Positions 5,051 through 59,871 of a stretch of DNA of 64,000 bases are shown here, piece by piece. How positions within the stretch are numbered: position 1 is the first letter of the stretch; each line of letters begins with the position of its first letter. The notes beneath the pieces were generated by a model, which made no database searches, had not been told where the DNA came from, and worked only from the letters and a program-made list of their open reading frames with translations. Position numbers and translations under genes: made by a program. Location: positions 283,212-347,211 of the forward strand of contig OZ245063.1 of the NCBI GenBank assembly GCA_965224805.1. Direction: 5' to 3'. This DNA comes from Robiginitomaculum sp. (GTDB lineage: Bacteria > Pseudomonadota > Alphaproteobacteria > Caulobacterales > Maricaulaceae).

Positions 5051-6079
5051 ATGTACCGTGCAGAACGACAATTCGTAACCATTGCCAGTGAACAAATGCT
5101 CGTTTTGGAGACTTTGTGGGGCGTAAGTCCGTTGCCTGTTTCAGAGGGCGGGTCTAAAGCGCAGACTGTACCTGCTTTGCAAACGATTAAAGATGAGGCC
5201 ATGGGCGTTGAAGCGCGGGGCGTGTATAGGGCTGCTAGTTTATGCGTGGACATTTACGGACGTATTCAGGTCAGTAATAGCGCCAAATTACGCGGCAGTC
5301 TTGCGGGGTTAAAAAGCCTAATTTTTCAATATGCACAGGGTTTATACGAAATAGATCCTGAATTTAAAGACAGCTTAACAAAACCGCATCAAACGCCAGA
5401 GCATATACATCATAATAATCCGCCTGAAGTTGAAACCATATGCTCGCAGGGGCGACATGCTATTGCTGCATTTAACCTCAAACCGCTGTTGCAGTTTTCA
5501 AAAAATAATGCGCAGCGTAAAGCCTTGGAAAGTTTGATTGCCCTCCCGACTCAGCCAAAAGTACAGGAACAAATGCCAATATCTGCACAGGTTAAGTTTG
5601 AAAACGTGATGCGCCCCATATCAAATTTGATTTTAAGTGAAGCCCGCAATTGTGAAAAAAAGATAAGTATATCCTATGCCTCAAACTTTGAAGAACTTAG
5701 TCTAAAGACAGCAAATTATATACAAGAATGCCTCGAAGTCCTGTGCTTGAATATTGTGCTTGCGGGGGTTGGCAATGCCAATACACAAATTTGTATTACG
5801 GGAAGCCGCGACGAGCGCACATATGCATTTACAGTAAATTGGTCGGGATTTAGCGTTGAAGAAAGCGTGCAAACCAATACCCATTTTAAAAATATGCAGG
5901 CAAATTTGATAGAGCAGGGCGGTGAAATAAATTTTGTGTCCGTTAAGGCGGCACACGTGGGAAGACAAAGCATGGGTATTAAATTTCCGCGCAAACGTCG
6001 CAACGTATCTTTGCAAAACCGTAATTTAAGTGCTTTGTCTCAAAATAATAAAACAATGGAAATGGGAGCGACAAGATGA
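5051..6079 (+). CDS. hypothetical protein, possibly with a degenerate histidine-kinase-like C-terminal fold
   Basis: 343-aa ORF (TTG 5048 / ATG 5051). Its stop overlaps the ATG of the downstream cheY-like gene (ATGA at 6076-6079). The C-terminal third (LEVLCLNIVLAGVG...ICITGSRDERTYAFTVNWSGFSV...LIEQGGEINFVS) loosely resembles N-box/G-box spacing of a GHKL domain but lacks DxGxG. No H-box recognised. Confidence 0.55.
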   Translation: MYRAERQFVTIASEQMLVLETLWGVSPLPVSEGGSKAQTVPALQTIKDEAMGVEARGVYRAASLCVDIYGRIQVSNSAKLRGSLAGLKSLIFQYAQGLYEIDPEFKDSLTKPHQTPEHIHHNNPPEVETICSQGRHAIAAFNLKPLLQFSKNNAQRKALESLIALPTQPKVQEQMPISAQVKFENVMRPISNLILSEARNCEKKISISYASNFEELSLKTANYIQECLEVLCLNIVLAGVGNANTQICITGSRDERTYAFTVNWSGFSVEESVQTNTHFKNMQANLIEQGGEINFVSVKAAHVGRQSMGIKFPRKRRNVSLQNRNLSALSQNNKTMEMGATR

Positions 6080-51449: not shown

Positions 51450-51524
51450 TGGTGCCGCAAGGGAGAATTGAACTCCCGACCTCATCATTACCAATGATGC
51501 GCTCTACCACTGAGCTACTGCGGC
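51450..51524 (-). tRNA. tRNA-Thr (anticodon GGU)
   Basis: The reverse complement is GCCGCAG TA GCTC AGTGGTA GAGC G CATCA TTGGTAA TGATG AGGTC GGGAG TTCAATT CTCCC TTGCGGC ACCA. It folds as a full cloverleaf of 75 nt with an encoded CCA and anticodon-loop positions 34-36 = GGT. Confidence 0.92.
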
Positions 51525-53555: not shown

Positions 53556-55013
53556 TTATTTTTCAGCAACGCGTTTTTCTTCCACCTCTAGTTCATGTTC
53601 ACGTACCTTACGGTACAGCGTTGAACGACCAATGCCGAGGCGACGGGCTACTTCTGACATGTGGCCACTATATGTATCGATAGCAAATTGGATAAGATCG
53701 GATTCAATGGCTCCCAGCGTACGCAAATGACCACTACGGTCTAATATACTTATATCGGTCTCTTCCGTGTCTGTTTCTGCTGTGTCTAATGTGGCTTGCA
53801 TGCCTGATGTTTCTTGGGACGGAATAACGGGGGCGAGGCCTGAGATTTGCGGAAAATCTTCGGGTTGCAACATATGCCCATCTGACAGTATGACAGCGCG
53901 AAAAACTGTGTTTTCTAACTGCCTAACATTACCCGGCCAGTCAAAGTTTTTCAAAATTTCAAGGGTTTTATGACTTATTCCGCGCACACTCATGCGTTCT
54001 TGGGCGTTAAACCGTTTGATGAAATGATCTGCGAGGGTGGCAATATCCTCTTTGCGTTCGCGCAAAGCAGGAATTTCTATTGGGAATACATTGAGGCGGT
54101 AATATAAGTCTTCGCGAAAACTTCCGTCTTTTACTGCGTCAGCAAGATTGCGATTGGTTGCTGAAATAATCCGCACATCAACTTTGGTGGGCCGTTTGGA
54201 GCCAATAGGGTCAACTTCGCCTTCTTGTAATACGCGCAGCAGTTTAACTTGCATAGCAAGGGGCAATTCTCCAACTTCATCAAGAAATAATGTACCCGTA
54301 TCCGCTTCTTGAAATTTACCGTAATGTTTAGTATTTGCGCCCGTAAAACTACCTTTTTCGTGGCCAAACAAAATGCTTTCGACCAAATTTTCAGGAATTG
54401 CACCGCAGTTTACTGTGACAAATGGTTTGCCAACTCGCTCGGATGTACCTTGGATAGCGCGGGCAACGATTTCTTTGCCGACACCGCTTTCCCCAGTTAT
54501 CAAGATAGGAATATTGGCACGTGCGCCCCGTTCACCCATAGCCACAACACTGCGCATAGACGGTGCATTGCCGATTAAATCTTTAAAGGTTAGCTCGCCT
54601 TTACCCGTCTTTTTAAGCCGTGTGACTTCGCAGGCCAGTGTTTTAATTTCGAGGGCGTTGCGCAGAGATATAATAATGCGTTCAGGGCTGGCGGGTTTAA
54701 CTAAAAAATCACGTGCCCCGTCTTGCATGGCTTTGACAACCGCATCAATACTGCCTGTACCTGTGAGAACAATGACAGGTAGGTTAGGGCGTTTTGCGTT
54801 TAATTCTTTAAGTGTATCCATGCCGCTCTTGCCTGGCATAACCAAATCGAGAAGCACGATGTCGATATTATCTCCATTGGGCGCAAAAACCATATCAAGT
54901 GCGCTGTCACCATCTGCGGCTTGCAGAGTGGAAAACCCGCTTTTTTCGATGACAGCTTGCAAGATGCGCCGCTGAGTCGGATCATCATCAACAATTAATA
55001 CTGACTTACCCAT
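53556..55013 (-). CDS. sigma-54-dependent response regulator (NtrC family, possibly TacA-like)
   Basis: 485 aa. It has a receiver domain (LIVDDD, LLDLVMPG), an AAA+ domain (GESGVGKE, GSFTGA, FLDEVGEL) and a C-terminal Fis-type HTH (RRLGIGRSTLYRKVRE). Confidence 0.88.
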   Translation of the reverse strand: MGKSVLIVDDDPTQRRILQAVIEKSGFSTLQAADGDSALDMVFAPNGDNIDIVLLDLVMPGKSGMDTLKELNAKRPNLPVIVLTGTGSIDAVVKAMQDGARDFLVKPASPERIIISLRNALEIKTLACEVTRLKKTGKGELTFKDLIGNAPSMRSVVAMGERGARANIPILITGESGVGKEIVARAIQGTSERVGKPFVTVNCGAIPENLVESILFGHEKGSFTGANTKHYGKFQEADTGTLFLDEVGELPLAMQVKLLRVLQEGEVDPIGSKRPTKVDVRIISATNRNLADAVKDGSFREDLYYRLNVFPIEIPALRERKEDIATLADHFIKRFNAQERMSVRGISHKTLEILKNFDWPGNVRQLENTVFRAVILSDGHMLQPEDFPQISGLAPVIPSQETSGMQATLDTAETDTEETDISILDRSGHLRTLGAIESDLIQFAIDTYSGHMSEVARRLGIGRSTLYRKVREHELEVEEKRVAEK

Positions 55014-55224: not shown

Positions 55225-55527
55225 ATGGCGTCCAAGCATTCAGATTACATTCGCGGCGAAATGCCAGTTTTTGGCCATGACAAAACATTTAAAGGTTTTG
55301 TCAAAATATCTGCCTTTACCACGGCTTTTATCATTGTTGTTTTGTTGATGCCAATTCTTGTGTTTACGGCTCATATGTCGTGGCTACCTGCTTTAATCGC
55401 GACTGTTGTGGTGGGCTTGCTTATCGCACCACCACTTAAGCTTGGCGGGGCATGGTATATGACATTATTTGGCATGGCGGGTGTGACAGGATTGTTATGT
55501 GTGTTCATCTCCATGATCGCTGGATAA
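55225..55527 (+). CDS. small membrane protein, N-terminus resembling bacterial aa3 oxidase subunit IV-like proteins
   Basis: 100 aa. HSDYIRGEMPVFGHDKTFKGFVKISAFTT is followed by 2-3 TM helices. As I recall, such small genes commonly precede pntA in alphaproteobacteria. Confidence 0.45.
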   Translation: MASKHSDYIRGEMPVFGHDKTFKGFVKISAFTTAFIIVVLLMPILVFTAHMSWLPALIATVVVGLLIAPPLKLGGAWYMTLFGMAGVTGLLCVFISMIAG

Positions 55528-55548: not shown

Positions 55549-56676
55549 TTGAAAATTGCCGTATTAAAAGAAACCGCTGCTCATGAAGCGCGGGTGGCCG
55601 TTAATCCTGACACGGTAAAATATTATATTACCCAAGGGCATGTGCTTACCATCACCAAAGGTGCTGGCAAGGCCGCGCATTTTTCAGATGCAGATTACAA
55701 AGCGGCAGGGGCGACTATCAGTGCCACCAATGTTGCATGTGTGAAAACTGCTGATTTGGTCATGAGCATTAATGGCGGCACGAAAGCGTTAGTTGCCAAA
55801 ATGAAAAAGGGAGCAGGGCTAGCGGGGCTCATGAACCCGACCGACCATCCTGATTTTGCTAAAGCGTGCGCCAAAGCAGGGGTGACGGCTTACGCTCTTG
55901 AATATATCCCGCGTATTTCTCGCGCTCAGGCCATGGATGTGCTTTCGTCTCAATCAAATTTGGCAGGTTATCGGAGTGTGGTTGAAGCCGCCTCTATTTA
56001 TGGCCGTGCTTTCCCGATGATGATGACGGCGGCGGGTACGATTGCACCAGCCAAAGTGTTTATTATGGGCGCAGGAGTTGCAGGCTTGCAGGCCATTGCA
56101 ACGGCAAGACGTCTCGGGGCGGTCACCACGGCAACCGATGTACGCCCCGCTGCCAAAGAACAAGTGGCGAGCCTCGGCGCGAAATTTATCGCCGTTGAAA
56201 ATGAAGAATTTAAACAGGCGGAAACGGCAGCAGGTTACGCCAAGCAAATGTCGGCTGAGTACCAAAAACTGCAAACCGAGTTGATGGCCAAGCATATTGC
56301 AAAACAAGACATTGTGGTGACAACGGCCCTCATCCCTGGACGCCCTGCACCGCGCCTCATCGACACCGCCATGATAAAATCCATGAAAGCGGGCAGTGTG
56401 GTGGTTGACCTCGCCATTGAGCGCGGGGGCAATGTGCAAGGGGCGAAAGCTGGCGAAATTGTTGAAACTTCGGGCGGCGTAAAAATCGTCGGTACACTCA
56501 ATTGGCCATCCCGCATGGCGGCAGATAGCTCGTCTCTCTTTGCCCGAAACTTACGCAATCTATTGCCGCTCATGACCGCAGAAGACGGAAGCTATGCTCC
56601 TGATTGGGACGACGAAATTATTCAAGGGTGTGCGTTGACACGAGACGGAAAAGTTATCCACGAACGCTTATTGTAA
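55549..56676 (+). CDS. pntAA: NAD(P) transhydrogenase subunit alpha part 1 (dI)
   Basis: TTG start. 375 aa. MKIAVLKE...VFIMGAGVAGLQAIATARRLGA (Rossmann fold)...TTALIPGRPAP. Confidence 0.93.
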   Translation: MKIAVLKETAAHEARVAVNPDTVKYYITQGHVLTITKGAGKAAHFSDADYKAAGATISATNVACVKTADLVMSINGGTKALVAKMKKGAGLAGLMNPTDHPDFAKACAKAGVTAYALEYIPRISRAQAMDVLSSQSNLAGYRSVVEAASIYGRAFPMMMTAAGTIAPAKVFIMGAGVAGLQAIATARRLGAVTTATDVRPAAKEQVASLGAKFIAVENEEFKQAETAAGYAKQMSAEYQKLQTELMAKHIAKQDIVVTTALIPGRPAPRLIDTAMIKSMKAGSVVVDLAIERGGNVQGAKAGEIVETSGGVKIVGTLNWPSRMAADSSSLFARNLRNLLPLMTAEDGSYAPDWDDEIIQGCALTRDGKVIHERLL

Positions 56677-56686
56677 AGGATAGACT

Positions 56687-57010
56687 ATGCATATGATAAT
56701 AATGGCAGGGACGGGCGCAGGGGTTTCCCCGTTCGTCTTTCAATTGGCGATTTTTGTTCTGGCAATTTTTGTAGGCTATTTCGTTGTATGGGCCGTAACC
56801 CCCGCACTCCACACCCCGCTTATGGCCGTTACTAATGCCATTTCGTCTGTGATAATCGTTGGCGCATTGGTTGCCGTATCTTCAACTGCTAGCGGTATTA
56901 CCCTGTCCAGTAGCATGGGCCTCGCCGCAACCCTCCTGTGCGCGGTCAATATTTTCGGCGGCTTCTTGGTCACCCAGCGCATGCTCGCCATGTATAAGAA
57001 AAAGGGGTAG
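56687..57010 (+). CDS. pntAB: NAD(P) transhydrogenase subunit alpha part 2 (membrane dII-a)
   Basis: 107 aa with three TM helices, ending GGFLVTQRMLAMYKKKG. Confidence 0.9.
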   Translation: MHMIIMAGTGAGVSPFVFQLAIFVLAIFVGYFVVWAVTPALHTPLMAVTNAISSVIIVGALVAVSSTASGITLSSSMGLAATLLCAVNIFGGFLVTQRMLAMYKKKG

Positions 57011-57019
57011 GCTGTGGAG

Positions 57020-57328
57020 ATGTCCCAAGAACATATCCTCAACACACTCAGTAAATTGCGCCCGAGGCTTGAACAAAAATACGGCGTTGAAATTTTTGGT
57101 ATTGTTGGGTCTTGGGCGCGTAATACGGCGAGCCCCGATAGTGATATTGATATTGTCTACCGTATAAAAAATATCGAGAAATTTGCATCTGTGCCGTGGA
57201 ATATTGGGGCACTTTGGAATGAATTCCAAAATACATTTGAATGTGATGTAGACATCATTGATTGGGAAGCGTTGCTACCCCGTCACAAAGATATTATGCA
57301 AAAAGACTTGGTCACATTTTATGGATGA
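57020..57328 (+). CDS. mntA: MntA-type minimal nucleotidyltransferase (type VII antitoxin)
   Basis: 102 aa (104 aa if it starts at GTG 57014). It carries the GSWARNTASPDSDIDIV signature (GSxxR...DxD) and a later DVDIID. It begins 3-9 nt after the pntAB stop. Confidence 0.8.
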   Translation: MSQEHILNTLSKLRPRLEQKYGVEIFGIVGSWARNTASPDSDIDIVYRIKNIEKFASVPWNIGALWNEFQNTFECDVDIIDWEALLPRHKDIMQKDLVTFYG

Positions 57329-57662
57329 AGTCACTACCAGCCGATTATTGGATATGAAAGAATATGCCGAAAAAGCCATATTACTTTTGGGGGATTTGTC
57401 CTATTCTGATTTTTCAAAGGATATGCGTACAAACCTAGCCGTCACAAGATGCGTAGAAATTATTGGCGAAGCCGCCTCACATGTTCCTGATGTCCAAAAG
57501 GCAAAAGCACCCGAAGTAAATTGGAAAGATATAATCGGAACGCGTATTGTATTGGCCCATGCCTACATGCGAATTACGCTAAGGACAATTTATGACATTG
57601 CTCGTTCGGAACTTCCCTCTTTAATACAACAACTCAATCACATATTGGATGATGAAAAATGA
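57321..57662 (+). CDS. hepT: HepT-type HEPN (DUF86) toxin
   Basis: ATG 57321 overlaps the mntA stop (57326-57328). 113 aa with RCVEIIGEAASHV and the R-x4-H motif (RIVLAHAY). Its TGA (57660-57662) overlaps the pntB ATG (57659). Confidence 0.8.
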   Translation: MDEVTTSRLLDMKEYAEKAILLLGDLSYSDFSKDMRTNLAVTRCVEIIGEAASHVPDVQKAKAPEVNWKDIIGTRIVLAHAYMRITLRTIYDIARSELPSLIQQLNHILDDEK

Positions 57663-59065
57663 TGATGACCGCAAACTTAGCCGCTATTCTTTATGTTATA
57701 TCTGGCGTATTGTTTATTCAATCCCTGCGCGGACTGTCTTCTCCTGCCAGCTCTCGCAAAGGCAATATTTACGGCATGATCGGGATTGCCATTGCAGTTG
57801 TTACGACCCTTTTGTTTGTTGGGGTGAGTGGGCAAGCTCTGGTTTATATCCTTATTGCGCTTGGTGTTGGCGGCGGTATTGGGGCTTATATTGCTAAAAA
57901 TATCCCTATGACTGACATGCCGCAATTGATTGCGGCTTTCCATTCATTGGTCGGTATGGCCGCCGTTTTGGTTGCTGTCGGCGCGTTTTACGCCCCTGCC
58001 AGTTTTGGTATTGGCGAAGTTGGGCAGCTCCATACGGTGAGTTTGTTAGAACTTTCATTGGGCGCAGCTATTGGCGCGGTAACCTTTAGTGGTTCCGTGA
58101 TTGCATTTTTGAAACTAAACGGCAATGTGTCTGGCGCACCGATTGTGTTTAAAGGACAGCACCTGCTCAACCTAGTTTTGGGGCTGATATTAACCGCCCT
58201 CATTGGCATGTTAATGGCATCAGGTGGGGCCAATACGACTGTTTTCCTTGCTATTGTTGCTCTTGCCTTCCTTATTGGTTTCTTGCTCATTATTCCAATC
58301 GGCGGGGCAGATATGCCCGTTGTGATTTCCATGCTCAATTCCTATTCTGGCTGGGCGGCTGCGGCTCTTGGTTTCACCCTTGGTAATCTCGCTCTGATTA
58401 TTACTGGTGCATTGGTTGGCTCATCGGGCGCAATTCTGTCCTACATTATGTGCAAGGCGATGAACCGTTCATTTATCAGTGTGATTTTGGGTGGGTTTGG
58501 CGCGGAAGGCGGAAGCAGTGACAGCGGCGATAAAGAACAACGCCCTGTCAAACGCGGTTCAGCAGACGACGCCGCATTTATCATGAAAAACGCTTCCAAA
58601 GTTATCATCGTGCCCGGATATGGTCTCGCCGTTGCCCAAGCCCAGCACGCCACCCGCGAAATGGCTGACAAGCTTAAAGAAGAAGGCGTTGATGTGGTCT
58701 ACGCAATCCATCCTGTTGCGGGCCGTATGCCAGGTCATATGAATGTACTCTTGGCAGAAGCCAATGTGCCATATGATGAAGTGTTCGAGCTTGAAGACAT
58801 CAATTCAGAATTTGCCAATGCTGAAGTTGCCTTTGTTATCGGGGCCAATGACGTCACCAACCCTGCCGCCAAAACTGATCCTGAAAGCCCCATCTACGGC
58901 ATGCCAGTTTTGGACGTAGATAAAGCCACAACCGTGCTATTTGTCAAACGCTCCCTATCAGTTGGTTACGCCGGTATCGACAATGATTTGTTTTACGCCG
59001 ACGGAACCATGATGCTGCTCGCAGATGCCAAGAAAATGGTCGAAGATATTATCAAGGCTTTATAG
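57659..59065 (+). CDS. pntB: NAD(P) transhydrogenase subunit beta
   Basis: 468 aa. ILYVISGVLFIQSLRGLSSPASSRKGN... forms the membrane domain, followed by the dIII domain (VPGYGLAVAQAQH, AIHPVAGRMPGHMNVLLAEA). Confidence 0.95.
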   Translation: MMMTANLAAILYVISGVLFIQSLRGLSSPASSRKGNIYGMIGIAIAVVTTLLFVGVSGQALVYILIALGVGGGIGAYIAKNIPMTDMPQLIAAFHSLVGMAAVLVAVGAFYAPASFGIGEVGQLHTVSLLELSLGAAIGAVTFSGSVIAFLKLNGNVSGAPIVFKGQHLLNLVLGLILTALIGMLMASGGANTTVFLAIVALAFLIGFLLIIPIGGADMPVVISMLNSYSGWAAAALGFTLGNLALIITGALVGSSGAILSYIMCKAMNRSFISVILGGFGAEGGSSDSGDKEQRPVKRGSADDAAFIMKNASKVIIVPGYGLAVAQAQHATREMADKLKEEGVDVVYAIHPVAGRMPGHMNVLLAEANVPYDEVFELEDINSEFANAEVAFVIGANDVTNPAAKTDPESPIYGMPVLDVDKATTVLFVKRSLSVGYAGIDNDLFYADGTMMLLADAKKMVEDIIKAL

Positions 59066-59871
59066 TGAAGTTTTTAAAATGGACAGTGTTGGGGGCCGTG
59101 GGATTATACCTCGCTGCGCTTATACTTATATTTATATTGCAACGTAATTATGTCTATTTTCCAGATACGTCCTCCGCGCCGCAAGGATTTGAAACTACCC
59201 ACGGTGTAGAAACGGTTTCTGTGCACGTTGAGGGTTTAGCTCCTTTGCATTCATTGTATTCTCCCGCACCACAACACGGCCCGATCATTTTATATTTTCA
59301 CGGCAATGGCAATTCCGTTTATTCGCGCACCCTACAATTTCGAGATTTTAAATCTTGGAATGTCGGGTTTTTATCTGTGGAATATCCTGGTTATGGTGGC
59401 AATCCAGGCACGCCCAACCAGACCGATATTTTTAAAACTGCCCTCGCCAATTATGATCTTCTCATTGCCAAAGGGTATGCGCCCGAGCAAATTGTTTTGT
59501 ACGGCAATTCATTGGGTACGACCAGTGCAACATATGTGGCGAGCCAACGCGAAGGCGCGGTTCTTATTCTTACCGCCCCCTTTTTATCCGCATTGGCTAT
59601 GGGGAAAATGCAAATGCCCTATTTTCCGATCTCACTCTTGCTAAAAGACACATATCGCTCGGACGTTTTCATGCCCAATATTACAGAACCCTTGCTGATT
59701 ATACATGGGGATGCAGATGAGTTGATTCCTCTAGCAATGGGAAAACAGCTCTTTGATCTCCACGCAGGCGAGAAAAATTTTGTCACCATAGAGGGCGGAA
59801 AGCACTATATGTGGAAGTCGCATATGCCCGAACACATTCACGCAGCTATAAAAAAATATGTCCCGCGCTAA
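59065..59871 (+). CDS. membrane-anchored alpha/beta hydrolase
   Basis: The GTG start overlaps the pntB stop. 268 aa with an N-terminal TM helix, YFHGNG, the nucleophile elbow GNSLGT, and HGDADE. Confidence 0.75.
   Translation: MKFLKWTVLGAVGLYLAALILIFILQRNYVYFPDTSSAPQGFETTHGVETVSVHVEGLAPLHSLYSPAPQHGPIILYFHGNGNSVYSRTLQFRDFKSWNVGFLSVEYPGYGGNPGTPNQTDIFKTALANYDLLIAKGYAPEQIVLYGNSLGTTSATYVASQREGAVLILTAPFLSALAMGKMQMPYFPISLLLKDTYRSDVFMPNITEPLLIIHGDADELIPLAMGKQLFDLHAGEKNFVTIEGGKHYMWKSHMPEHIHAAIKKYVPR

What the first reader, a model, noticed from the sequence alone, without database searches (positions are those of the whole stretch)
57011..57662. HepT/MntA (HEPN/nucleotidyltransferase) toxin-antitoxin pair inside the pntAA-pntAB-pntB operon, translationally chained to pntB
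Seen: the pntAB stop is at 57008-57010. GTG 57014 / ATG 57020 then opens an ORF with the minimal nucleotidyltransferase signature (GSWARNTASPDSDIDIV, DVDIID). Its stop overlaps ATG 57321 of a DUF86/HEPN ORF (IIGEAASHV, R-x4-H as RIVLAH). That ORF's TGA overlaps the pntB ATG (ATGA at 57659-57662). By eye the 650-bp insert looks more AT-rich than the flanking pnt genes. Established: MntA/HepT form type VII TA systems in which the HEPN RNase is neutralised by nucleotidylylation. The pntA and pntB genes are normally directly adjacent. Inference: a TA module has inserted into, or been domesticated within, a core redox-metabolism operon. As a result pntB expression depends on transcription, and probably on translation, through the toxin gene. 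This would couple NADPH supply to TA expression, or use an essential operon to retain the TA. I am not aware of this arrangement being described.
Basis: partly seen in the sequence, partly recalled or inferred. Interest (0 to 1): 0.75.

Follow-up and report, generated by a model that had tools for sequence, protein, structure and literature searches.

The report
Toxin-antitoxin pair inside transhydrogenase operon
A toxin–antitoxin gene pair (HepT RNase and its MntA neutraliser) sits between the subunit genes of a core NADPH-making enzyme; it is an old, recurrent arrangement in Caulobacter-related bacteria, where the position stays fixed while the pair itself is repeatedly swapped.

Summary
mntA (57014-57328) and hepT (57321-57662) lie between pntAB and pntB. 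They have 3 nt spacing to pntAB, an 8-nt mntA/hepT overlap and an ATGA hepT/pntB overlap. Both pass Pfam thresholds and carry the class I type VII signatures (GSX10DXD; RX4HXY).

The reading as a single insertion is too narrow. I found the same arrangement in 13 distinct loci: Robiginitomaculum-like, Brevundimonas-like and Caulobacter/Phenylobacterium-like genomes. In a concatenated MntA+HepT tree all 13 form one clade (290/300 bootstraps), apart from 63 free-standing pairs.

Inside that clade the cassette's history conflicts with that of the flanking pnt genes. In L016 vs L095, DNA identity is about 93% in pnt and about 60% exactly across mntA-hepT. This points to allele exchange through the conserved flanks.

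Both genes are under purifying selection, are AT-richer than their hosts, and have no room for a promoter of their own. In this window pntB and hepT lack a recognisable Shine-Dalgarno sequence.

Best reading: an operon-embedded, probably active TA lineage. It was captured once, is expressed by read-through, and turns over like a conflict gene. Toxicity and any link to Pnt function are untested. No paper describing it was found.

The parts
55225..55527 (+). Small membrane protein gene (100 aa), probably the first gene of the pnt operon
   Evidence: It gives a weak PF07835 COX4_pro_2 hit (E 3.7e-5). A homologous small ORF precedes pntAA in L081, L085, L090, L093 and L095. It ends 21 nt before pntAA.
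55549..56676 (+). pntAA, transhydrogenase alpha subunit, part 1 (dI)
   Evidence: It hits AlaDh_PNT_N and AlaDh_PNT_C (E 1e-35 and 5e-65) and NF006942 (412 bits). Its SD-like match is strong (-9.8 kcal/mol).
56687..57010 (+). pntAB, transhydrogenase alpha subunit, part 2 (4TM)
   Evidence: It hits PF12769 PNTB_4TM (E 3e-33). Its stop is TAG at 57008-57010.
57014..57328 (+). mntA, minimal nucleotidyltransferase (predicted antitoxin), 104 aa, GTG start 3 nt after the pntAB stop
   Evidence: It hits PF01909 and PF18765 above their gathering scores. The GSX10DXD motif (G32 S33 ... D44 x D46) and the third Asp (D80) are invariant in 12 aligned pairs. PADLOC gives PDC-S09 at E 2.6e-15. The SD-like match inside the end of pntAB is -8.0 kcal/mol.
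57321..57662 (+). hepT, HEPN/DUF86 RNase (predicted toxin), 113 aa; its start overlaps the end of mntA by 8 nt
   Evidence: It hits PF01934 (E 5.9e-20). R75-x4-H80-x-Y82 and G49-E50-A51 are invariant in 18 relatives. The AF2 model has pLDDT 90.9. Its top 19 PDB matches are all HepT/HEPN toxins of MNT-HEPN pairs, with TM 0.61-0.71. It has no SD-like match (-2.7 kcal/mol).
57659..59065 (+). pntB, transhydrogenase beta subunit; its ATG overlaps the hepT stop (ATGA at 57659-57662)
   Evidence: It hits PF02233 (E 9e-190). The ATGA overlap with hepT is present in 11 of 13 loci. The exceptions are a 1-nt overlap in L083 and a 1-nt spacer in L001. The SD-like match is at background level (-3.2 kcal/mol).
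59065..59871 (+). Alpha/beta hydrolase gene; its GTG overlaps the pntB stop by 1 nt (last gene of the tightly packed array)
   Evidence: It hits PF12146 Hydrolase_4 (E 3.8e-12). The same gene follows pntB in L085.

Best explanation
The 650 bp hold a class I type VII toxin-antitoxin pair. MntA is a minimal nucleotidyltransferase that most likely oligo-AMPylates Tyr82 of HepT. HepT is a HEPN RNase with the R75-x4-H80-x-Y82 site, and the modification would silence it.

The pair belongs to a distinct lineage of MntA/HepT. That lineage was captured once, long ago, between pntAB (or a small membrane gene that follows it) and pntB. The host was an ancestor of Caulobacteraceae and Robiginitomaculaceae.

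The pair has no promoter of its own. It is transcribed from the pnt promoter and translated in a chain:
- the pntAB stop is followed after 3 nt by the mntA start;
- mntA and hepT overlap by 8 nt;
- hepT and pntB overlap as ATGA.

In this genome PntB synthesis therefore probably depends on ribosomes that terminate on hepT.

The position and the coupling are conserved, but the cassette itself behaves like a conflict or accessory gene. It evolves several times faster than pnt, stays AT-richer than the host, is present or absent among close relatives, and is replaced by diverged alleles. The likely route of replacement is homologous recombination in the conserved pnt flanks.

Shown here: family membership by domain, motif and fold; the recurrent arrangement; monophyly; purifying selection; discordant histories.

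Inferred, not shown: toxicity, AMPylation, read-through transcription, re-initiation at pntB, and the reason for persistence. The reason may be addiction and/or defence, helped by the fact that an imprecise deletion would harm pntB.
For: Family:
- Pfam hits are above the curated cut-offs.
- GSX10DXD plus the third Asp, and RX4HXY, are invariant. These are the motifs that define class I HepT/MntA in PMC7641770.
- A profile of the HepT relatives hits Shewanella HepT 5yep/6m6u at E 3e-5.
- The AF2 model's top 19 PDB matches are HepT/HEPN toxins.

Recurrence. The order pntAA-pntAB-(small ORF)-mntA-hepT-pntB is found in:
- the window;
- L081, L083, L085;
- L001, L016;
- L090/L091, L092, L093, L095/L096;
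- L098, L101, L125.

Every HepT relative with more than 50% identity to one of the three HepT queries (window, L001, L016) whose context I read lies in pnt. The more distant relatives I read (P0005, P0006, P0009, P0045, P0055) are free-standing.

Monophyly (concatenated MntA+HepT NJ tree, 76 pairs, 215 columns):
- all 13 pnt-embedded pairs together: 290/300 bootstraps;
- MntA alone: 275/300;
- the deep split (Robiginitomaculum-like vs Caulobacteraceae-like) matches the host groups.

Selection: dN/dS is 0.06-0.55 for both genes.

Exchange:
- Quartet bootstraps give opposite topologies. Pnt supports (window,L001)|(L085,L092) in 976/1000, while the TA genes support (window,L085)|(L001,L092) in 1000/1000. 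Pnt supports (L016,L095) in 1000/1000, while the TA genes support (L016,L093) in 939/1000.
- In L016 vs L095, nucleotide identity is about 93% in pntAA, pntAB and the small ORF. It is about 60% exactly over mntA-hepT and returns to about 90% in pntB.
- Four-fold-site divergence is 0.19 in pnt and 0.50 in the TA genes (p = 1.5e-7).

Expression:
- The spacing is 3 nt, with 8-nt and 4-nt overlaps.
- No promoter-like or terminator-like site lies on the + strand inside the insert.
- hepT and pntB have only background SD matches in the window.

Not a transposed element: no repeats bound the insert, and TA-less loci hold no remnants.
Against: - No experiment supports toxicity, AMPylation or co-transcription.
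- Both proteins fall below NCBIfam's equivalog cut-offs for HepT and MntA (24.4 and 33.3 bits against 60).
- The window's HepT clade carries Ile/Val directly after the catalytic Arg. In 135 of 141 relatives this residue is Asn, Asp or His. The RNase may therefore be weakened or altered.
- Many close relatives lack the pair and show no scar. This includes Brevundimonas-like genomes with 89-94% identical PntB. Loss, or replacement by an empty allele, is clearly possible, which weakens the idea that the operon holds the cassette hostage.
- The trees are neighbour-joining on short proteins. HepT alone supports the joint clade in only 23-33% of bootstraps.
- The outgroup is limited to what two capped scans returned.
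- The promoter scan uses only a sigma-70 consensus.
- Several relatives have a good SD before pntB (-6 to -8.4 kcal/mol). Coupling is therefore not obligatory everywhere.
Confidence: 0.55

Rival explanations
1. Domesticated module with a role in Pnt biology. In this reading the pair is kept because it regulates the operon. HepT might cleave the polycistronic pnt mRNA to set subunit ratios. Alternatively, ATP-dependent MntA might link energy state to PntB synthesis. It would not be kept as a selfish or defensive toxin-antitoxin.
For: - The position is fixed, the hepT/pntB junction is ATGA in 11 of 13 loci, and the lineage is monophyletic across two families.
- There is no promoter of its own.
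- The pair occurs in all eight Robiginitomaculum-like loci sampled.
- Catalytic residues are invariant and dN/dS is below 1.
Against: - A dedicated partner of Pnt should co-evolve with it. Instead the cassette has an older and discordant history and is swapped between relatives.
- dN is 2-16 times that of pnt.
- The pair is missing without trace from close relatives whose pnt operons look intact.
- Other unrelated small genes occupy the same junction, also overlapping the pntB start. The coupling is therefore a property of the site, not of HepT.
Confidence: 0.15
2. Not a toxin-antitoxin at all. The MNT and HEPN proteins would form a two-subunit nucleotidyltransferase, as the two domains of kanamycin nucleotidyltransferase do, and would modify a small molecule or another protein.
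For: - MntA's only sequence matches in the PDB are kanamycin/aminoglycoside nucleotidyltransferases (E 1e-3). NCBIfam gives weak ANT(4') hits.
- The window's clade lacks the polar residue after the catalytic Arg.
Against: - RX4HXY, including the AMP-acceptor Tyr, is invariant.
- The nearest folds are HepT toxins, not the C-terminal domain of the aminoglycoside enzymes.
- Tested pairs with these two motifs behaved as toxin and antitoxin (PMC7641770).
- The rapid turnover fits a conflict system.
Confidence: 0.07
3. Recent insertion of a mobile toxin-antitoxin cassette, private to this lineage, revealed by its low GC content.
For: The GC of the two genes (0.40-0.41) is below that of every long ORF in the window.
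Against: - The same arrangement occurs in 13 loci of three host groups, and the pairs form one clade.
- The GC deficit is seen in all 10 loci tested and scales with host GC (0.32-0.45 in hosts of 43-51% GC, 0.61-0.69 in hosts of 67-69%).
- There are no flanking repeats.
Confidence: 0.03
4. Inactive relic. The pair is a decaying remnant that survives only because deleting it would damage pntB expression.
For: - The catalytic motif is atypical (R-I/V) in the window's clade.
- Scores fall below the NCBIfam equivalog cut-offs.
Against: - Both ORFs are intact in all 13 loci.
- dN/dS is 0.06-0.27 within the window's clade.
- All catalytic and acceptor residues are invariant.
Confidence: 0.05

Closest known systems
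Class I HepT/MntA (HEPN/MNT) type VII toxin-antitoxin systems, e.g. Shewanella oneidensis SO_3166/SO_3165 (PMC7641770; PDB 5yep, 7bxo) and Aphanizomenon flos-aquae HEPN/MNT (PDB 7ae2, 7ae8)
   Same: - The gene order is the same: mntA upstream and overlapping hepT.
- The Pfam pair is the same: PF01909/PF01934.
- GSX10DXD and RX4HXY are both present.
- The HEPN fold matches, with TM 0.61-0.71.
   Different: - This pair has no promoter of its own and is embedded between subunit genes of one enzyme complex.
- It is translationally chained to both neighbours.
- It forms a host-lineage-specific clade.
- By contrast, Shewanella pairs are reported mainly in prophages and mobile islands (PMC13000451).
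- Sequence identity to the solved proteins is low (14-17%), and scores fall below the NCBIfam equivalog cut-offs.
- The window's clade has R-I/V instead of R-N/D.
Toxin-antitoxin modules co-transcribed with housekeeping genes: E. coli relA-mazEF and the Staphylococcus aureus mazEF-sigB operon (from my own knowledge, not checked here)
   Same: The expression of a chromosomal toxin-antitoxin pair is tied to a neighbouring core operon.
   Different: - Those pairs lie at the edge of the neighbouring operon and have promoters of their own.
- Here the pair lies between genes for subunits of a single complex, with overlapping stop and start codons.
- The arrangement is conserved across two families.
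Variable hotspots for defence or toxin-antitoxin genes between conserved core genes, with cassette turnover by flanking homologous recombination (general concept, from my own knowledge)
   Same: - The flanks are conserved and the content is hypervariable.
- Close relatives differ in presence or absence.
- The cassette and the flanks have discordant phylogenies.
- Other small accessory genes occupy the same site.
   Different: - The hotspot lies inside an operon, and all cargo is co-oriented and translationally packed.
- The cargo here is one monophyletic toxin-antitoxin lineage rather than a mixture of systems.
- No integrase or tRNA gene lies next to the site.
Three-gene pntAA-pntAB-pntB transhydrogenase operons of Alphaproteobacteria
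   Same: All three genes are present and intact, in the usual order.
   Different: In 60 of 79 compared loci pntAB and pntB are 60 nt or less apart. Here 650 nt with two extra genes separate them.

Membership tests
Class I HepT/MntA type VII TA (as defined in PMC7641770) | The toxin is a HEPN protein of PF01934 (DUF86/HepT-like) or PF08780 | tested here: met
   PF01934: E 5.9e-20, 71.6 bits against a cut-off of 23.5, covering the full profile 1-120.
Class I HepT/MntA type VII TA (as defined in PMC7641770) | The neighbouring upstream gene encodes a PF01909 minimal nucleotidyltransferase | tested here: met
   PF01909 scores 31.6 bits against a cut-off of 21, and PF18765 scores 27.7 against 26.9. 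The gene is directly upstream and overlaps hepT by 8 nt.
Class I HepT/MntA type VII TA (as defined in PMC7641770) | RX4HXY motif in HepT (RNase site plus AMP-acceptor Tyr) | tested here: met
   The window has R75-IVLA-H80-A-Y82. R, H and Y are invariant in 18 relatives and present in 139-140 of 141.
Class I HepT/MntA type VII TA (as defined in PMC7641770) | GSX10DXD motif in MntA, plus a third metal-binding Asp | tested here: met
   The window has G32-S33-(10 residues)-D44-I-D46 and D80. All are invariant in 12 aligned MntA proteins.
Class I HepT/MntA type VII TA (as defined in PMC7641770) | HepT adopts the HEPN fold of solved HepT toxins | tested here: met
   The AF2 model has pLDDT 90.9 and pTM 0.85. 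Its top 19 PDB matches are HepT/HEPN toxins of MNT-HEPN pairs, with probability 1.00 and TM 0.61-0.71.
Class I HepT/MntA type VII TA (as defined in PMC7641770) | HepT is toxic (RNase), and MntA neutralises it by AMPylating the Tyr | not testable with these tools
   This needs expression and toxicity assays and mass spectrometry.
NCBIfam equivalogs NF047751 (HepT toxin) and NF047752 (MntA antitoxin) | Whole-protein score at or above the curated cut-off (60 bits) | tested here: not met
   HepT scores 24.4 bits and MntA 33.3 bits. They are relatives of the characterised pairs, not equivalogs.
Autonomous TA operon (typical, not strictly defining) | A promoter of its own, and a location independent of neighbouring genes | tested here: not met
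   Only 3 nt separate the pntAB stop from the mntA start. No promoter-like site lies on the + strand in 57011-57662. The same embedding is seen in all 13 loci.
Proton-translocating NAD(P) transhydrogenase, three-gene form | PntAA (AlaDh_PNT_N/C), PntAB (PNTB_4TM) and PntB (PNTB) encoded in this order on one strand | tested here: met
   Shown. The order is conserved in 79 related loci.

The most novel reading that the evidence does not exclude
The pnt-embedded MntA/HepT lineage has been co-opted as a working part of the transhydrogenase operon. It could act as an ATP-sensing switch. When MntA can no longer keep HepT AMPylated, HepT would cut the pnt (or bulk) mRNA, and this would tie NADPH production and growth to energy state. 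In that case its persistence across two families would reflect host benefit, not addiction or defence.
Probability: 0.12. Interest if true: 0.8.

Novelty: new variant of a known kind. Interest (0 to 1): 0.55.

Why it matters
Chromosomal toxin-antitoxin pairs are usually seen as autonomous, self-regulated and mobile two-gene units. This is a lineage that has given up its own promoter. It lives between the subunit genes of a core redox enzyme and has kept that exact position, with stop/start overlaps, across at least two bacterial families. Its sequence is meanwhile swapped between relatives.

This gives a natural system for three questions:
- Can a toxin-antitoxin pair persist by being wired into an operon the host cannot afford to break?
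- How does an antitoxin that acts by covalent modification behave when its expression is slaved to a metabolic promoter?
- Can intra-operon sites act as recombination-accessible hotspots for accessory genes?

There is also a practical point for annotation. A large gap between pntAB and pntB in Caulobacter relatives is not an error. It is a variable region that holds real genes.

Tried and rejected
- Single-sequence search of the PDB with HepT found nothing. A profile was needed.
- The first metagenome scan, with an 18-sequence alignment, failed because no stretch was conserved enough. It was repeated with 9 sequences.
I replaced it with my own numpy neighbour-joining code.
- A HepT-only tree gave weak support for joint monophyly (33%). 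Concatenation with MntA was needed.
- One Pfam scan of the ORFs in other genomes' pntAB-pntB gaps failed on wrong coordinates and was not repeated. Those ORFs were only read by eye.
- I looked for decayed mntA/hepT in TA-less loci with sensitive tblastn. There were no hits at the junction.
- I looked for direct or inverted repeats bounding the insert. Only short chance matches turned up.
- PHROGs gave no match for either protein. PADLOC matched only MntA, to the candidate system PDC-S09.
- Rfam found nothing in the region.
- The listing of cluster members did not give the organism's name. Its nearest relative is a Robiginitomaculum sp. MAG with 85-87% identical Pnt proteins.
- Synonymous-site comparison is uninformative in the window's own clade because the sites are saturated (four-fold differences 0.55-0.67). 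For that clade the case for exchange rests on tree discordance.
- The 'recent insertion' and 'relic' readings were rejected for the reasons given under the rival explanations.
Full report
**1. The observation**

- pntAB ends with TAG at 57008-57010.
- A 104-codon ORF runs from GTG 57014 to TGA 57328. ATG 57020 is in frame. Orthologues start at the position of the GTG.
- A 113-codon ORF runs from ATG 57321 to TGA 57662.
- pntB starts at ATG 57659, so ATGA lies at 57659-57662.

Profile searches identify all the genes.
- ORF1 hits NTP_transf_2 (E 2.2e-7) and Polbeta.
- ORF2 hits HepT-like PF01934 (E 5.9e-20).
- All these hits are above Pfam's gathering scores.
- The neighbours are PntAA, PntAB and PntB.
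- NCBIfam's stricter equivalog models for MntA and HepT are hit, but below their cut-offs (33.3 and 24.4 bits against 60).

The insert is AT-rich. Its genes have GC 0.41 and 0.40, against 0.49-0.52 for pnt. No long ORF of the window is as low (48 ORFs: mean 0.480, sd 0.028, minimum 0.426).

**2. What the two proteins are**

MntA carries G32-S33-X10-D44-x-D46 and a third Asp (D80). All are invariant in 12 aligned relatives.

HepT carries G49-E50-A51 and R75-x4-H80-x-Y82, invariant in 18 relatives.

These are the two motifs that Yao et al. used to define class I HepT/MntA pairs. In that work the DxD motif was needed to AMPylate the Tyr of RX4HXY, and the AMPylation was needed to neutralise the RNase (PMC7641770).

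Structural evidence agrees.
- A profile of the HepT relatives hits Shewanella HepT (5yep, 6m6u) at E 3e-5.
- An AlphaFold model has pLDDT 90.9.
- Its top 19 PDB neighbours are only HepT/HEPN toxins of MNT-HEPN pairs (TM 0.61-0.71).

One oddity stands out. The four members of the window's clade have Ile or Val right after the catalytic Arg. In 135 of 141 relatives this residue is Asn, Asp or His.

**3. The arrangement is not private to this genome**

A scan of species-representative genomes with PntB returned 80 alphaproteobacterial loci.
- In 60 of the 79 loci that hold both genes, pntAB and pntB are 60 nt or less apart (median 13 nt).
- Two loci carry mntA-hepT at the same place. One is the nearest relative, a Robiginitomaculum sp. 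MAG (L001). The other is a 69%-GC alphaproteobacterial MAG (L016).

I then looked up the contigs that encode the closest HepT homologues of the window, of L001 and of L016.
- Every one of them, down to 52% identity, lies in pntAA-pntAB-(small ORF)-mntA-hepT-pntB. These are L081, L083, L085, L090/91, L092, L093 and L095/96.
- More distant homologues (P0005, P0006, P0009, P0045, P0055) are ordinary free-standing pairs. One of them sits in a toxin-antitoxin island.

A metagenome scan added three more embedded pairs (L098, L101, L125) among 80 hits. Their PntB is closest to Caulobacter and Phenylobacterium.

In total there are 13 distinct loci. The hepT stop overlaps the pntB start as ATGA in 11 of them.

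**4. One lineage, captured once**

I built a concatenated MntA+HepT alignment of 76 pairs and 215 columns.
- The 13 embedded pairs form one clade in 290 of 300 neighbour-joining bootstraps.
- MntA alone supports the clade in 275/300.
- HepT alone supports it in only 69/300, though the clade is present in the full tree.
- The deep split separates Robiginitomaculum-like pairs (296/300) from Caulobacteraceae-like pairs (294/300). This matches the host groups seen in the PntB tree.

By NCBI taxonomy the hosts span Maricaulales/Robiginitomaculaceae and Caulobacterales.

I see no transposition scars and no decayed copies in TA-less relatives.

**5. Fixed position, swapped content**

Within each host group the cassette's history disagrees with that of its flanks.

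Quartet bootstraps:
- Pnt proteins group the window with L001 in 976/1000. The TA proteins group the window with L085 in 1000/1000.
- Pnt groups L016 with L095 in 1000/1000. The TA genes group L016 with L093 in 939/1000.

L016 versus L095:
- DNA identity is about 93% through pntAA, pntAB and a small membrane ORF.
- It falls to about 60% exactly over mntA-hepT and returns to about 90% in pntB.
- Four-fold degenerate sites differ at 0.19 in pnt and at 0.50 in the cassette (p = 1.5e-7).

Selection and composition:
- Both genes are under purifying selection (dN/dS 0.06-0.55).
- Their dN is 2-16 times that of pnt.
- In all 10 loci tested the cassette has lower GC and GC3 than pnt, and the values scale with host GC.

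Presence is patchy. Brevundimonas-like genomes with 89-94% identical PntB lack the pair.

I read this as allele replacement through homologous recombination in the conserved pnt flanks. That includes replacement by empty alleles. It is the behaviour of an accessory or conflict gene.

**6. The site itself**

In Caulobacteraceae the same junction holds other small co-oriented genes, whose stops also abut pntB:
- a roughly 100-aa membrane protein in many genomes;
- a second membrane ORF in L036 and L063;
- a signal-peptide ORF shared by L063 (no TA) and L016 (TA);
- a 215-aa ORF in L023.

The junction therefore tolerates cargo. Tight coupling to pntB is a feature of the site, not of HepT.

**7. 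Expression**

- Only 3 nt separate pntAB from mntA.
- No sigma-70-like promoter or terminator-like site lies on the + strand within 57011-57662. Counts in the region equal those of shuffled sequence.
- Duplex energies with the anti-SD sequence are -9.8 (pntAA), -5.4 (pntAB), -8.0 (mntA), -2.7 (hepT) and -3.2 kcal/mol (pntB). Random 20-mers of the window give -2.8 +/- 2.6.

In this genome hepT and pntB therefore probably rely on termination-reinitiation. Some relatives have a good SD before pntB.

**8. Interpretation**

The best-supported reading has four elements:
- an active, or recently active, type VII toxin-antitoxin lineage;
- captured once into the pnt operon of an ancestor of these families;
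- expressed by read-through;
- maintained and diversified as a conflict element.

PADLOC lists MNT proteins of this type in a candidate defence system (PDC-S09, E 2.6e-15).

The main rival is true functional integration with Pnt. The fixed position and the monophyly keep it alive. The discordant history, the fast evolution, the patchy presence and the other cargo at the same site argue against it.

**9. Novelty**

Six full-text searches found no description of HEPN/DUF86/MNT genes in pnt operons. One deposited protein of this group that carries a name is called only 'DUF86 domain-containing protein'.

The molecular system is known. New are the conserved intra-operon embedding, the dedicated lineage and the cassette exchange. 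I therefore rate it a new variant of a known kind, of moderate interest.

Noticed in passing
window 55225-55527 (+): A 100-aa membrane ORF with a weak COX4_pro_2 (PF07835) hit lies 21 nt upstream of pntAA. A homologous small ORF holds the same place in L081, L085, L090, L093 and L095. It is probably a conserved first gene of the pnt operon in this group.
   Followed up: partly
L011, L032, L037, L039, L068, L036, L063, L023, L016 (pntAB-pntB gap, roughly locus positions 5300-6000): In Caulobacteraceae the pntAB-pntB junction collects other small co-oriented genes. These are a conserved membrane ORF of about 100 aa, a second membrane ORF (L036, L063), a signal-peptide ORF of about 125 aa shared by L063 and L016, and a 215-aa ORF in L023. 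I read them by eye only; no family was assigned.
   Followed up: partly
L101 about 2230-2900: The small membrane ORF after pntAB and MntA lie in one reading frame with no stop codon between them. This could be a membrane-anchored MntA fusion, or an internal start.
   Followed up: no
window 57543-57566 (HepT residues 75-82): The window's HepT clade has Ile/Val directly after the catalytic Arg (R-I/V-x3-H-x-Y). In 135 of 141 relatives this residue is Asn, Asp or His. The RNase site may be weakened or retuned.
   Followed up: partly
window 59065-59871 (+): The GTG start of an alpha/beta hydrolase gene (PF12146) overlaps the pntB stop by 1 nt. The same gene follows pntB in L085 but not in the Caulobacteraceae-like loci.
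   Followed up: no
window 53556-55013 (-): A sigma-54-dependent response regulator (Response_reg + Sigma54_activat + HTH_8 in its orthologues) is transcribed divergently from the pnt operon. It is conserved at this place in L081, L083, L085 and L090. It might regulate pnt, and so also the toxin-antitoxin pair.
   Followed up: no
L178 1-8321: A free-standing mntA-hepT relative (P0055) sits in a dense toxin-antitoxin island with BrnT/CopG, PIN, HipA and HigB-like genes. This is the usual kind of context and contrasts with the pnt-embedded lineage.
   Followed up: no
window 51453-51524 (-): A single tRNA gene is the only Rfam match in the 64-kb window. It is unrelated to the finding.
   Followed up: no
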